DNA from: Candidatus Abyssobacteria bacterium SURF_17
Lineage (GTDB): Bacteria; Abyssobacteria; SURF-5
NCBI GenBank assembly: GCA_003598055.1
Contig: QZKI01000022.1
Span: forward strand, 15,566 to 79,565
Direction: 5' to 3'
DNA: 64,000 nt
A program made the translations under genes and the position numbers. Below the pieces are notes generated by a model. That model was not told the origin of the DNA. It did not search any database and was given only the letters and a program-made list of their open reading frames with translations. Shown here piece after piece: positions 355 to 61,067 of the stretch. Numbering within the stretch: position 1 is the stretch's first letter; each line of letters starts with the position of its first letter.

Positions 355-386
355 CTCCTCTTTTCGCTTGCAAGCGAAAAGAGGAG
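355..386. promoter_or_regulatory. perfect 32-bp palindrome CTCCTCTTTTCGCTTG|CAAGCGAAAAGAGGAG in the divergent acd/glgC spacer; candidate operator
   Basis: The two halves are exact reverse complements. The palindrome lies upstream of both divergent starts (285 minus, 555 plus). No U-run follows it on either strand, so it is not a terminator. Confidence 0.35.
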
Positions 387-8692: not shown

Positions 8693-8754
8693 CGCGTAAT
8701 TCCGGAAATTCGCGGCATAGGTAAAATAGCCCTGAGGATGGTTGTTGTAGGGCC

Positions 8755-8812
8755 GAATTCATTCGGCTGGAGACCTGGAAGGCCTCATGCGAATAAATTC
8801 GCACCTACAGAC
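8755..8812. repeat. bipartite palindromic repeat element (GGGCCGAATTCATTCGGCTGGA ... ATGCGAATAAATTCGCACCTACAGAC)
   Basis: Two short palindromes (GCCGAAT/ATTCGGC and TGCGAAT/ATTCGCA) plus a CCTACAGAC tail. The same two modules recur at 44515-44586 and the second module twice at 51116-51187. Confidence 0.5.
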
Positions 8813-14044: not shown

Positions 14045-14127
14045 CCGACGTCCGAAGGCCGTGCACGAGAGAATGAAGGGGCGCATATGCAATGCGCCCC
14101 TTCTTGGCTTCATGAGCGGGAGAATCT

Positions 14128-24084: not shown

Positions 24085-24514
24085 CAAATTCCTCCTGTGT
24101 GTTAATTCCGGGGACATGATACCGATTCTCTTGGAAGGCGAAAGAAATGGCTACTCTTTCCGTCCGAGTATGCCAAGTTCAAATGGGTATCATGTCTCCG
24201 GAACACCGCTTCCTTGTAGCCACACGCACTCAAACGGGGACAATATGAGCAAATTCTGAGCCGACTGCAAAATCAATCTATAGAAATAGCATAACACCTG
24301 TGTTTCCAAGCTGCTATGGATTTTTCCATGATTTGTCCGTGGATCTCTATTCTGGGGCATTTGCCGAATTTCAACCTGAGCGCTGCGTGAAATGCCACAA
24401 CGGGATTCCGCAGGGGCGAACGGCCGCGGACCTTTCAACCACAAGATTGAGGCTTGGACAGGTTCTCAGATACTTCCCATCGGCGGATGGGTCTACTGAA
24501 GCACTAAAATAAGA

Positions 24515-29750: not shown

Positions 29751-29859
29751 GGGGGCGCAGGGCTGTGCGCCCCTACAACAAGAATTGCGGCTGCTTCGCA
29801 AAGAGTTGACCGCATCTCGTGTGGAGGGGCGACCCGACGTCGGGTCGCCCCTACAATTG
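29751..29859. repeat. two REP-like GC hairpins with CCCCTACAA tail (GGGGCGCAGGGCTGTGCGCCCCTACAACA; GGGGCGACCCGACGTCGGGTCGCCCCTACAATTG)
   Basis: Members of the GTAG-headed hairpin family repeated through the window. They sit in the kinase-PilZ spacer. Confidence 0.5.
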
Positions 29860-36300: not shown

Positions 36301-36370
36301 TGATGTCCTCGCGTGAGTAGTACTGACTGGTTGGTCCTAATGATATCACCCGTTCTGGAATCTGTCAAGT

Positions 36371-36456
36371 CTTTTTTTCATTCTTTTTTTCAGTCTTTTT
36401 TTCCGTGCCGCTTTCGTCCCGGGAATTTGCCCGGGAATTTGCCCGGGAATTTGATT
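36371..36456. repeat. three T7 tracts phased at 12 bp, followed by a 3x tandem 12-bp direct repeat (CCCGGGAATTTG)
   Basis: TCTTTTTTT occurs three times (36371-36401). CCCGGGAATTTG occurs three times head-to-tail (36416-36451), then TTGACG. Located in the divergent TetR/ADC-like intergenic region. Confidence 0.5.
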
Positions 36457-36481
36457 GACGAAGCATATGCATCGAGCGTAC

Positions 36482-36526
36482 GGGCGAACCTTGTGTTCGC
36501 CCATGGGCGCAATGAATTACGCCCCC
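36482..36526. repeat. pair of REP-like hairpins (GGGCGAACCTTGTGTTCGCCC; GGGCGCAATGAATTACGCCCC)
   Basis: GC stems with an AATGAATT loop, related to the TGCGAATAAATTCGCA and GGGCGCA...TGCGCCCC families. Confidence 0.4.
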
Positions 36527-36773
36527 CTGAGTCTGTCCCACAATTGCGCTTCATCCCCTTTCTCGCCTGACATTCTTTGCGCCCTTTGCGTCTTTGCGGT
36601 TAGAAAACTCCTTGGGCAAGAGCAGGTTCGCCCCCGCAACTGACCTCCTCATAATGTTTGATGCATTTTCCAGTCTCATCTATGAGCAATTTCGACGACT
36701 TAACATTGCATTCCGAAAAGGTTGCTGACAAACTTAGAGAAATTACATTCAGTCACGAATACTGTTCGGCGCT

Positions 36774-39944: not shown

Positions 39945-39975
39945 CAGGGCGCAGCATGTTGCGCCCCTACAACCT
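39945..39975. repeat. REP-like hairpin GGGCGCAGCATGTTGCGCCCCTACAACC
   Basis: Same family as 29751-29859, 51015-51040 and 61037-61067. Confidence 0.5.
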
Positions 39976-44402: not shown

Positions 44403-44514
44403 GAGTAGCATATGTTGGCACCCCCATCGTTCGAACAAAAAATGTTTCTTTGAAACCGTGCCTGTGCACTTGCGCAAGTTAGGGACAGAGAATCAGTATC
44501 GTGGTCCTGTAGGG

Positions 44515-44586
44515 TCGAATTCATTCGACTGGATATGAGCGCAAAGTTGCTGAAAACATTATGCGAATAAATTCGCACCTACGAGA
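44515..44586. repeat. bipartite palindromic repeat element (GGGTCGAATTCATTCGACTGGA ... ATGCGAATAAATTCGCACCTACGAGAC)
   Basis: Second full copy of the 8755-8812 element; both modules are present. Confidence 0.5.
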
Positions 44587-49208: not shown

Positions 49209-49339
49209 TTATTGCCTCCAACAGATTTGGGGTTGCCAGATTACAGGAGCCTTATGCATTCTCACGAATTCCGCCTTCTCCTCGCGTAACGATAATGAAC
49301 AATGAACCTATCCGGCGACGGTAGCCTCGGGAATATATT

Positions 49340-49369
49340 GCAGGGGCACGGCACGCCGTGCCCCTGCAG
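49340..49369. repeat. perfect 30-bp palindrome TGCAGGGGCACGGCACGCCGTGCCCCTGCA (REP-like)
   Basis: Exact reverse-complement halves. GC-stem family similar to GGGCGCA...TGCGCCCC. Sits in the secDF-yajC spacer. Confidence 0.45.
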
Positions 49370-49870: not shown

Positions 49871-51040
<1,170 letters not shown>

Positions 51041-51115
51041 TTCTTGGCCTACCTCTCGGCCCGCGTCTTTCGTCTTTCCCAATTCCCCTTCAGCGATTGT
51101 TTCCTGCTTGTGTAG

Positions 51116-51187
51116 GTGCGAATTTATTCGCATGCGGATGACGAAAACAAGCCGGAAAAACCATGCGAATGAATTCGCACCTACAGA
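51116..51187. repeat. inverted pair of the TGCGAAT-AA-ATTCGCA / CCTAC element (BIME-like)
   Basis: GTAGGTGCGAATTTATTCGCAT at 51116-51137 is the reverse complement of the ATGCGAATGAATTCGCACCTACAGAC unit at 51161-51186. Confidence 0.5.
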
Positions 51188-52383: not shown

Positions 52384-52431
52384 AAGGGCGCAATAAATTA
52401 CGCCCCTCTGCGCCTGCCGTAGGGGCGCGAT
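52384..52431. repeat. REP-like GC hairpins with AATAAATT loop (GGGCGCAATAAATTACGCCCC ... GTAGGGGCGCGATTCATCGCGCCC)
   Basis: Links the GC-stem and AT-loop families: GTAG head, GGGCGC stems, AATAAATT loop. Confidence 0.4.
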
Positions 52432-53019
52432 TCATCGCGCCCGATCTGTTTGGTTGCGGCCGTGCCGCTCTATGCGAGCTTGAGACGAACCGGGCGAGTG
52501 GAATCGCTCCTTCTCGCTGTAAATGCAGCCGCAGTATTTCTGCCGGTACAGCCCCATTTCGCGCGACAGTTGGCGGGTCTGCGGCCAACCCGGCCGAAAA
52601 TCCTCGTAATAGAATTCGATTCCGTACTGCAATCCGGCGCTCTGGCCGACTTCGCGAATGAGGTCGTGCTTCTGATACGGGCTTACAAGGAGGGATGTGC
52701 TGAATGCATCGAACCCCTGGGCCGACGCTTCGCGAGCCGCTCGTGACAAGCGCAGGTGGTAGCATGCTACGCAGCGATTGCTTTCACGGTATGCGACAAG
52801 TCTGAAATACTCCTCCACATCGTACTCATTGCAAATCGTTGCCGGTATGGCCTCGATTTCGAGCAATTTCCTCGCCGAATCCAGCCGGAGGTTATGCTCG
52901 GCCAGCGGATGGATGTTGGGATTATAAAAGAATCCGTGCACATTGTGGCCTCGTTCCCGCAAAGTCTTCACGGGATAGGTGGCGCACGGTCCGCAGCAGA
53001 TGTGGAGAAGAAGCTTCAT
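52432..53019 (-). CDS. queH: epoxyqueuosine reductase QueH (DUF208)
   Basis: N-terminal MKLLLHICCGPCATYP (CCGPC signature of DUF208/QueH). 195 aa. Adjacent to queA and tgt. Confidence 0.8.
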   Translation of the reverse strand: MKLLLHICCGPCATYPVKTLRERGHNVHGFFYNPNIHPLAEHNLRLDSARKLLEIEAIPATICNEYDVEEYFRLVAYRESNRCVACYHLRLSRAAREASAQGFDAFSTSLLVSPYQKHDLIREVGQSAGLQYGIEFYYEDFRPGWPQTRQLSREMGLYRQKYCGCIYSEKERFHSPGSSQARIERHGRNQTDRAR

Positions 53020-59254: not shown

Positions 59255-59329
59255 GGTTCACGCTCCTTCGCCCCTCTGCGAATGAGTTCGCAGTTACACA
59301 ATTACGAGAGAGAGTCCCTGTCCTGCAAA

Positions 59330-59388
59330 TCCCCCCTACCCCCCTTTGCCAAAGGGGGATTGGTGGTTCCCCTTTGTGAAGGGGGTGA
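59330..59388. repeat. two tandem similar GC hairpins (CCCCCTTTGCCAAAGGGGG; CCCCTTTGTGAAGGGGG) just after the ligD stop
   Basis: Inverted repeats seen directly. No U-run follows, so their role as a terminator is uncertain. Confidence 0.3.
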
Positions 59389-61036: not shown

Positions 61037-61067
61037 TTTGTAGGGGCGCACGGCCGTGCGCCCCTGC
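61037..61067. repeat. REP-like hairpin in inverted orientation TTGTAGGGGCGCACGGCCGTGCGCCCCTGCC
   Basis: GTAG head plus GGGCGCA/TGCGCCC stem. Confidence 0.45.

What the first reader, a model, noticed from the sequence alone, without database searches (positions are those of the whole stretch)
29751..29859. REP-like GTAG-headed GC-hairpin family scattered through the window
Short hairpins of the form (TT)GTAGGGGCGCA-loop-TGCGCCCCTACAA occur in both orientations at 29751-29780, 29826-29859, 39945-39975, 51015-51040, 52384-52431 and 61037-61067, with relatives at 36482-36526 and 49340-49369. Several lie exactly at gene boundaries and explain N-terminal over-extension of the longest ORFs of tgt, ligD and the PilZ gene. 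The conserved GTAG/CTAC tetranucleotide next to a GC palindrome is the hallmark of REP elements mobilised by RAYT (TnpA-REP) transposases. No RAYT is present in this window.
Basis: partly seen in the sequence, partly recalled or inferred. Interest (0 to 1): 0.5.

Follow-up and report, generated by a model that had tools for sequence, protein, structure and literature searches.

The report
GTAG-tagged REP repeats, two families
The short GC-rich hairpins are genuine REP elements, the small palindromic repeats that a RAYT transposase spreads through bacterial intergenic DNA; this kind of element is already well described, so the case is real but ordinary.

Summary
GTAGGGGCGC occurs 5 times exactly (0.11 expected). 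All five copies fit GTAGGGGCGC-N8-GCGCCC (0.03 expected).

It has four exact copies plus variants and forms three inverted dimers of about 62-74 bp.

About 18 units lie at 11 sites, all between genes. They occur as head-head, tail-tail and tandem dimers. Translated through, they explain the over-long ORFs of tgt, ligD and the PilZ gene.

Four relatives have a compact queH-queA-tgt-yajC operon with none of these repeats, so the repeats are lineage-specific insertions.

The window holds no RAYT. In other genomes the same repeat sequences flank, and sometimes sit inside, REP-associated tyrosine transposase genes. Family B flanks a RAYT scoring 145 bits against NCBIfam NF047646 (cutoff 80). Family A accompanies RAYTs that resemble the published subclass 2.4.

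The source is a Candidatus Abyssobacteria MAG. I could not reach the rest of its genome, so its own RAYT and its genome-wide copy number remain untested.

GTAG-tagged REPs, their dimers, "double-foot" forms and REP copies inside RAYT genes are all published. This is a new member of a known kind, of low to moderate interest.

The parts
29752..29778 (-). Family A REP unit: TTGTAG + GGGGCGCA/TGCGCCCC hairpin. It is the first unit of a tandem (head-tail) pair between the Ser/Thr kinase gene and the PilZ gene.
   Evidence: Exact match to GTAGGGGCGC-N8-GCGCCC; 8-bp stem; intergenic.
29825..29856 (-). Family A variant REP unit: TTGTAG + 12-bp stem AGGGGCGACCCG. It is the second unit of the tandem pair.
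   Evidence: The region folds with z = -5.0.
39947..39972 (-). Family A REP unit, a singleton between the glyoxalase-family gene and the aminotransferase gene.
   Evidence: Exact pattern match; intergenic.
51013..51040 (-). Family A REP unit 12 nt upstream of the likely tgt start (ATG 50998).
   Evidence: Fold z = -5.1.
52386..52411 (-). Degenerate family A unit (foot GCAGA, stem with a G-T wobble). It is the left half of a tail-tail dimer, with the feet facing inwards.
   Evidence: It differs by one base from 36505-36525.
52419..52442 (+). Family A REP unit, the right half of the tail-tail dimer. It overlaps the last 11 nt of queH, including its stop codon.
   Evidence: The same GATTCATC upper stem occurs in Thermoanaerobaculia locus L033, beside a second, oppositely oriented unit whose upper stem is AATTCATT.
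61038..61067 (+). Family A REP unit with two feet (GTAG ... CTGC), 32 nt upstream of the likely ligD start (ATG 61005).
   Evidence: fold z = -3.9.
36482..36529 (-). Two adjacent GC hairpins without an intact GTAG (GGGCGAAC... and GGGCGCAATGAATTACGCCCC). I read them as decayed family A copies in a divergent promoter region.
49339..49368 (.). Palindrome TGCAGGGGCACGG-cacg-CCGTGCCCCTGCA, a two-footed variant with GCAG/CTGC feet, between yajC and secDF.
   Evidence: 13-bp stem. It is hit by the REP-derived peptide of RAYTs P0341 and P0325.
14075..14103 (.). Palindrome GAAGGGGCGCAT-atgca-ATGCGCCCCTTC between convergent genes. It has the same GGGGCGCA core but no GTAG. It could be a family A relative or a terminator; membership is uncertain.
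8747..8808 (.). Family B head-head dimer (REPIN-like). The left unit is the variant GTAGGGCCGAATTCATTCGGC and the right unit is GTAGGTGCGAATTTATTCGCA.
   Evidence: Fold z = -4.8.
44509..44582 (.). Family B head-head dimer. The left unit is the variant GTAGGGTCGAATTCATTCGAC and the right unit is an exact family B copy.
   Evidence: Fold z = -3.2.
51111..51185 (.). Family B head-head dimer with 24-nt arms that are 96% complementary and 27 nt between them, lying between queA and tgt.
   Evidence: Fold -26.9 kcal/mol, z = -8.2.
59277..59297 (-). Degenerate family B unit (GTAACTGCGAACTCATTCGCA) between the DUF72 gene and ligD.
   Evidence: 3 mismatches.

Best explanation
These are repetitive extragenic palindromes (REPs) of the GTAG-tagged superfamily. 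The window holds at least two families.
- Family A is (TT)GTAG-GGGCGC-variable upper stem-GCGCCC.
- Family B is GTAGG-TGCGAA-TTYA-TTCGCA.

They occur as single units and as head-head, tail-tail and head-tail dimers.

Shown here: they are short, non-coding, hairpin-forming elements inserted between genes in this lineage.

Inferred: they were spread by a REP-associated tyrosine transposase (RAYT, also called TnpA-REP). This HUH/Y1 enzyme recognises the single-stranded hairpin together with the GTAG foot, then cuts and rejoins the DNA. The enzyme would be encoded elsewhere in the genome, or may since have been lost.

Once in place, the units lie between co-directional genes and so probably within operon transcripts. 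There they could act as RNA hairpins that affect mRNA stability or translation. This is inferred from work on E. coli REPs and was not tested here.
For: 1. Over-representation. Family A is exact 5 times against 0.11 expected. The 24-nt pattern occurs 5 times against 0.03 expected. Family B has 5 hits against 0.00 expected.
2. Location. All 11 sites are intergenic, although 88% of the window is coding (P about 1e-10).
3. Dimers. There are three family B inverted dimers with the feet outside, one family A dimer with the feet inside, and one tandem pair. They fold far better than shuffled sequence, with z down to -8.2.
4. Hairpin under selection.
   - The family B variant arms GCCGAA/TTCGGC and GTCGAA/TTCGAC are changed on both sides, so the stem is kept.
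   - In 82 family A instances from other genomes, the unconstrained N8 positions pair in 79%, 93% and 77% of cases and use several pair types; chance would give 25%.
5. Insertion in this lineage. In four relatives the queH-queA, queA-tgt and tgt-yajC spacers run from an overlap to 47 bp and carry no such hairpins. The window has about 140 bp and 240 bp spacers filled with REPs.
6. Link to a transposase.
   - In an all-against-all ORF clustering of 120 family A loci, one cluster of ORFs overlapping or within about 300 bp of the motif in four genomes (L039, L045, L060, L081) proved to be a Y1/RAYT protein.
   - In L045 REP copies flank the gene and one lies inside it.
   - In L213 exact family B units bracket a RAYT that scores 145.5 bits against NF047646, cutoff 80.
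7. Lineage signature. Five of six family A copies in the window have TT before GTAG. Copies in other genomes do not share this. This points to spread within this genome.
Against: - No RAYT is in the window, and the rest of the source genome could not be searched.
- The five exact family A copies all differ in their upper stem and loop. That is not what a recently expanding population with one master sequence would look like; they may be several old sub-families.
- Several units are degenerate and lack GTAG (36482-36529, 49339-49368, 52386-52411, 59277-59297).
- Genome-wide copy number is unknown.
- No cleavage or transposition was observed.
Confidence: 0.85

Rival explanations
1. The hairpins are factor-independent transcription terminators or mRNA 3'-end stabilisers that evolved in place. 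They are not mobile elements.
For: They are stable GC hairpins in intergenic DNA. 14075-14103 lies between convergent genes. Three units appear in the terminator-like scan.
Against: - The terminator scan shows no enrichment: 24 found against 19.5 expected.
- Most units lack a T-run.
- The same 21-24-nt sequences recur at unrelated loci with a conserved GTAG foot.
- They occur in both orientations relative to transcription, inside an operon that is compact in relatives, and in a divergent promoter region (36482-36529).
Confidence: 0.04
2. The palindromes are operator sites for one DNA-binding regulator; that is, they mark a regulon.
For: They are palindromic, and some lie just upstream of gene starts (tgt, ligD, PilZ gene).
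Against: - The neighbouring genes have unrelated functions.
- Many units lie downstream of genes.
- The stems vary while keeping their pairing, which fits a folded single strand rather than a duplex binding site.
- Identical sequences occur in many phyla next to RAYT genes.
Confidence: 0.02
3. They are REPs, but an orphan and decaying population. The cognate RAYT has been lost, so the copies are fossils that no longer move.
For: No RAYT is in 64 kb. Several copies are degenerate. The family A copies all differ in the upper stem. The literature reports that REP-RAYT units (REPtrons) are missing in some REP-bearing strains (PMC3733652).
Against: The family B right-hand units are identical over 21 nt at three sites, which suggests fairly recent copying. 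A RAYT is typically single-copy, so its absence from 64 kb says little.
Confidence: 0.25

Closest known systems
GTAG-tagged REP superfamily (Di Nocera, De Gregorio and Rocco 2013, PMC3733652)
   Same: A terminal GTAG next to a 6-13 bp stem with a short loop. Extragenic location, mostly between co-directional or convergent genes. Head-head, tail-tail and head-tail dimers 20-100 bp apart. Several families co-exist in one genome. Reported in Proteobacteria, Cyanobacteria, Chloroflexi and the PVC group.
   Different: The host is a Candidatus Abyssobacteria MAG, which is not among the phyla quoted there. The figures are not held, so I could not match these units to one of that paper's 24 numbered families.
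REPs of TnpA-REP subclass 2.4 (Quentin et al. 2018, PMC6006769)
   Same: [quoted passage not shown] Family A has the GGG/CCC base. 61038-67 and 49339-68 have two feet. The RAYTs next to family A in L039 and L045 carry an internal REP.
   Different: No subclass 2.4 gene was found in the window. Calling the L045-type RAYTs subclass 2.4 rests on shared features, not on the authors' own profiles.
REPINs of Pseudomonas fluorescens (Bertels and Rainey 2011, PMC3116915)
   Same: Two inverted REPs separated by a short spacer form one long hairpin. That doublet is thought to be the unit a single-copy RAYT mobilises. The three family B dimers (62-75 bp) have this form.
   Different: The left arms of two of the dimers are sequence variants. 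Population structure (a master sequence with many copies) could not be assessed.
E. coli REP/BIME and TnpA-REP (structure PDB 4ER8, as cited in PMC6006769)
   Same: A GTAG foot plus an imperfect palindrome, recognised as single-stranded DNA by a HUH/Y1 enzyme.
   Different: The E. coli stems are longer and bulged, and their sequence is unrelated.
Subterminal hairpins of IS200/IS605 elements
   Same: They are recognised by a related Y1 transposase as folded single strands.
   Different: Those hairpins bracket a transposase-carrying element. Here the hairpins stand alone, with no coding cargo.

Membership tests
REP (GTAG-tagged repetitive extragenic palindrome) | A short (20-40 bp) palindromic unit able to form a stem-loop | tested here: met
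   Stems of 7-13 bp with loops of 4-6 nt. Units and dimers fold better than shuffles, z from -2.0 to -8.2.
REP (GTAG-tagged repetitive extragenic palindrome) | A conserved GT[AG]G tetranucleotide at one foot of the hairpin | tested here: met
   GTAG is present in 6 family A units and 6 family B units. It is degenerate (GCAG, GAAG, GTAA or absent) in about 6 further units.
REP (GTAG-tagged repetitive extragenic palindrome) | Extragenic location | tested here: met
   All 11 sites are intergenic in a window that is 88% coding. One unit overlaps the last 11 nt of queH.
REP (GTAG-tagged repetitive extragenic palindrome) | High copy number across the genome (tens to hundreds) | not testable with these tools
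   About 18 units in 64 kb, spread from 8.7 to 61 kb.
REP (GTAG-tagged repetitive extragenic palindrome) | Arrangement in dimers or clusters (BIME/REPIN; head-head, tail-tail, head-tail) | tested here: met
   Three head-head family B dimers, one tail-tail and one head-tail family A dimer. Head-head dimers with a 16-nt spacer dominate family B in metagenomes.
REP-RAYT system | A cognate RAYT gene in the same genome, flanked by the same REPs | not testable with these tools
   None in the window (best tblastn E = 0.035, and several of the weak hits are only REP-derived peptides). In other genomes the same REPs flank RAYTs: L045, L039, L060 and L081 for family A; L213 and L196 for family B.
REP-RAYT system | Evidence of insertion or mobility (presence/absence at orthologous sites) | tested here: met
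   queH-queA-tgt-yajC is compact and free of REPs in L121, L242, L243 and L245. In the window the same spacers hold 6 units. These relatives are distant (71-76% QueA identity), so this shows gain in the lineage, not recent movement.
Intrinsic terminator | A GC-rich hairpin followed directly by a T-run, at the 3' end of a transcription unit | tested here: not met
   No enrichment in the scan (24 against 19.5). Most units lack a T-run, and several lie upstream of genes or inside an operon.
Known structured RNA family (Rfam) | A match to a curated covariance model at its gathering score | tested here: not met
   No matches in the whole window.

The most novel reading that the evidence does not exclude
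Both REP families are shared almost base for base with very distant bacteria. The family B 21-mer is identical to the REPs bracketing a Methylococcaceae RAYT, and it occurs in metagenome contigs of 37-71% GC. Family A, including its commonest upper stems, recurs in Chloroflexota, Acidobacteriota, Cyanobacteria, Omnitrophota and others. The most novel reading is that complete REP-RAYT systems move between phyla and colonised this candidate lineage recently. That would run against the view that REPIN-RAYT systems are inherited almost only vertically. A second novel reading is that this genome keeps its REPs with no RAYT at all.
Probability: 0.3. Interest if true: 0.4.

Novelty: new member of a known kind. 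Interest (0 to 1): 0.25.

Why it matters
- **Annotation.** Knowing these are REPs corrects the starts of tgt, ligD and the PilZ gene, removes spurious small ORFs such as 36313-36570, and flags the queH stop codon as supplied by a repeat.
- **Host range.** It extends the recorded hosts of GTAG-tagged REPs to a Candidatus Abyssobacteria genome.
- **Markers.** It gives two sequence tags for testing copy number, for finding the cognate RAYT, and for asking whether REP-RAYT systems cross phylum boundaries.

It does not reveal a new kind of element.

Tried and rejected
- **Reaching the source genome.** Exact-protein look-ups for YajC, QueA (P0001) and a 90%-cluster member (P0362) found nothing on record. 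The rest of the 99-kb contig and the other contigs stayed out of reach.
- **Collection scans.** They give no copy numbers and did not return the source genome.
- **Finding an Abyssobacteria RAYT by protein search.** I queried with the L213 and L045 RAYTs. The best 120 hits of each search named no Abyssobacteria protein. This is not informative, because thousands of hits were not listed.
- **Literature search for the motif.** A search for the DNA motif returned only unrelated papers, and a search for the REP-derived peptides returned none.
- **Known RNA families.** Rfam gave no match.
- **Terminators.** The terminator reading was rejected.
- **CRISPR, integron attC and TIR/TSD-type MITE readings.** I considered these from the anatomy and dropped them: there is no regular spacing, no attC-like R/L boxes, and no terminal inverted repeats or target duplications beyond the REPs themselves.
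- **Orientation bias.** The family A feet show no bias relative to transcription (3 against 3).

Full report
**Observation**

The signal is well above chance:
- GTAGGGGCGC occurs five times exactly, against 0.11 expected from dinucleotide-preserving shuffles.
- All five copies fit the fixed-length pattern GTAGGGGCGC-N8-GCGCCC, against 0.03 expected.

Copies lie on both strands. A sixth unit (29825-29854) has the same TTGTAG foot on a longer stem, AGGGGCGACCCG.

One is a degenerate minus-strand copy at 52386-52411. The other is a full plus-strand copy that runs to 52442.

The two 'relatives' at 36482-36526 and 49340-49369 are GC hairpins without an intact GTAG. 36505-36525 differs from 52386-52406 by a single base and shares its G-T wobble, so these two descend from one variant.

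A scan for GTAG followed by a hairpin, together with an inverted-repeat search, revealed a second family, GTAGGTGCGAATTYATTCGCA. It has four exact copies and one degenerate copy, against none expected.

These units form three inverted dimers with the GTAG feet on the outside: 8747-8808, 44509-44582 and 51111-51185.
- The last has 24-nt arms that are 96% complementary. It folds at -26.9 kcal/mol, z = -8.2.
- In the other two, the left arm is a variant (GCCGAA/TTCGGC, GTCGAA/TTCGAC) changed on both sides of the stem, so pairing is kept.

A further palindrome at 14075-14103 shares the GGGGCGCA core but has GAAG/CTTC feet and lies between convergent genes. Its membership is uncertain.

**Setting**

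QueA in the window is 100% identical to a protein of a Candidatus Abyssobacteria MAG (RJP73961.1).

With corrected gene starts the window is 88% coding. Even so, all 11 repeat sites are intergenic (about 1e-10 by chance). One unit overlaps the last 11 nt of queH, including its stop codon.

The longest ORFs of tgt, ligD and the PilZ gene read through the repeats and yield repeat-derived peptides. Plausible true starts lie just downstream, at ATG 50998, ATG 61005 and ATG 29901. The tgt start agrees with the 375-residue Tgt of most relatives.

**Are they insertions?**

Four relatives (71-76% QueA identity) keep the same ruvB-queH-queA-tgt-yajC-secDF order.
- In the relatives, queH and queA overlap or are 12 bp apart, and queA-tgt is 13-47 bp. 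None of these hairpins is present.
- In the window, the queH-queA spacer is about 140 bp and the queA-tgt spacer about 240 bp. Together they hold six units.

The repeats were therefore gained in this lineage. One relative (L245) carries a family B unit elsewhere on its contig.

**Link to a transposase**

The window has no RAYT. tblastn with 54 RAYT queries gave nothing better than E = 0.035. Several of the weak hits were only the REP-derived peptides of RAYTs matching the window's REPs.

The hits came from many phyla, including Chloroflexota, Cyanobacteria, Acidobacteriota, Omnitrophota, Planctomycetota and Bacteroidota.
- In 82 non-redundant instances the unconstrained N8 positions pair in 79%, 93% and 77% of cases, using several pair types.
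- 22% of instances continue into CTAC.
- Most of these are therefore real hairpins and not chance matches.

I clustered all ORFs of these loci against each other. One cluster of ORFs, overlapping or within about 300 bp of the motif in four unrelated genomes, proved to be a Y1 transposase. It matches NCBIfam NF047646, REP-associated tyrosine transposase, at E 1e-12 to 1e-22; one member reaches the curated cutoff. In L045 the gene is bracketed by two copies and has a third inside it.

Most units there sit in head-head dimers with a 16-nt spacer.
- In L213 exact family B units bracket a RAYT. In L196 an exact family B unit lies about 250 bp downstream of a RAYT.
- Both RAYTs score about 145 bits against NF047646, cutoff 80.
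- The L213 protein is a Methylococcaceae RAYT.

**Comparison with the literature**

Di Nocera et al. (PMC3733652) define a GTAG-tagged REP superfamily with these features:
- stems of 6-13 bp;
- head-head, tail-tail and head-tail dimers;
- several families in one genome;
- association with RAYT genes;
- reported in Proteobacteria, Cyanobacteria, Chloroflexi and the PVC group.

Quentin et al. (PMC6006769) describe TnpA-REP subclass 2.4. Its REPs have three G-C pairs at the stem base, or two feet (GT[AG]G ... C[TC]AC). Its distribution across phyla is patchy. [quoted passage not shown]

This matches what I saw in passing. In most of the 120 homologues of the L045 RAYT, a peptide follows the HUH motif that reads like a translated family A-type REP. 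Examples are VGAQHAAPLQ, GRGTACRAPT and VGATHASPLQ, and they fall in different reading frames. That feature is therefore already published.

**Rival readings**

- Intrinsic terminators. The consensus scan shows no enrichment (24 against 19.5). Most units lack a T-run. They occur in both orientations relative to transcription and inside an operon.
- Operator sites. The flanking genes are unrelated, and the stems co-vary as folded single strands do.
- Known RNA families. No Rfam family matches.
- Orphan REPs. This remains open: several copies are degenerate and the five exact family A copies all differ in the upper stem, so the cognate RAYT may have been lost. Against it, three family B units are identical over 21 nt. 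A RAYT is usually single-copy, so its absence from 64 kb means little.

**Mechanism**

*Shown here:*
- short hairpin-forming repeats with a GTAG foot;
- strictly intergenic position;
- paired arrangements;
- insertion in this lineage;
- sequence identity to repeats that flank RAYT genes elsewhere.

*Inferred from established work on TnpA-REP and IS200/IS605 enzymes:*
- A HUH/Y1 RAYT binds the folded single strand, reads the GTAG foot, and cuts and rejoins the DNA to copy the element.
- Once transcribed within operons, the hairpins may alter mRNA stability or translation.

*Not shown:* that this genome has a RAYT, or how many copies it carries.

**Verdict**

It is a new member of a known kind and should be scored low to moderate.

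The one point of wider interest is the near base-for-base sharing of both REP families with very distant phyla. This hints at horizontal movement of REP-RAYT systems. Testing it needs the whole genome and a RAYT phylogeny.

Noticed in passing
window 8747-8808, 44509-44582, 51111-51185, 59277-59297: A second REP family (GTAGGTGCGAATTYATTCGCA) that is not in the finding. It forms three inverted dimers with the feet outside. The exact 21-mer is widespread in metagenomes of 37-71% GC and brackets a Methylococcaceae RAYT.
   Followed up: yes
L045:2107-2646(-), L039:3789-4367(+), proteins P0241-P0360: Most RAYTs of this clade carry, 5-25 residues after the HUH motif, a peptide that reads like a translated GTAG-GGGCGC-type REP (VGAQHAAPLQ, GRGTACRAPT, VGATHASPLQ), in different reading frames. 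So the DNA hairpin appears to be what is kept. Quentin et al. 2018 already describe this for subclass 2.4.
   Followed up: partly
window 52432-52442: The family A unit at 52419-52442 supplies the last three codons and the stop codon of queH. QueH is 195 residues here and 184-191 in relatives, so the insertion may have altered its C-terminus.
   Followed up: partly
window 24106-24203: An inverted repeat with 22-nt arms (TTCCGGGGACATGATACCGATT / AATGGGTATCATGTCTCCGGAA, 91% complementary) separated by 54 nt, just downstream of the ribonucleotide reductase gene. It is unrelated to the REP families.
   Followed up: no
window 355-386: A perfect 16-bp palindrome, CTCCTCTTTTCGCTTG/CAAGCGAAAAGAGGAG, directly after the first ORF (37-351). 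It is possibly a terminator.
   Followed up: no
window 59332-59385: A cluster of overlapping short palindromes built from CCCCTTTG/CAAAGGGG, preceded by CCCCCTAC, in the spacer between the DUF72 gene and ligD and next to the degenerate family B unit.
   Followed up: no
window 36313-36570: The 85-residue ORF here overlaps the two decayed hairpins at 36482-36529 and is probably spurious.
   Followed up: no
L033:609-673, L005, L034, L048, L079, L084, L090: In other phyla, family A units form inverted pairs 20-80 bp apart. The Thermoanaerobaculia pair in L033 has upper stems AATTCATT and GATTCATC. The second is identical to the window unit at 52419-52442. The first resembles its degenerate partner at 52386-52411.
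   Followed up: partly
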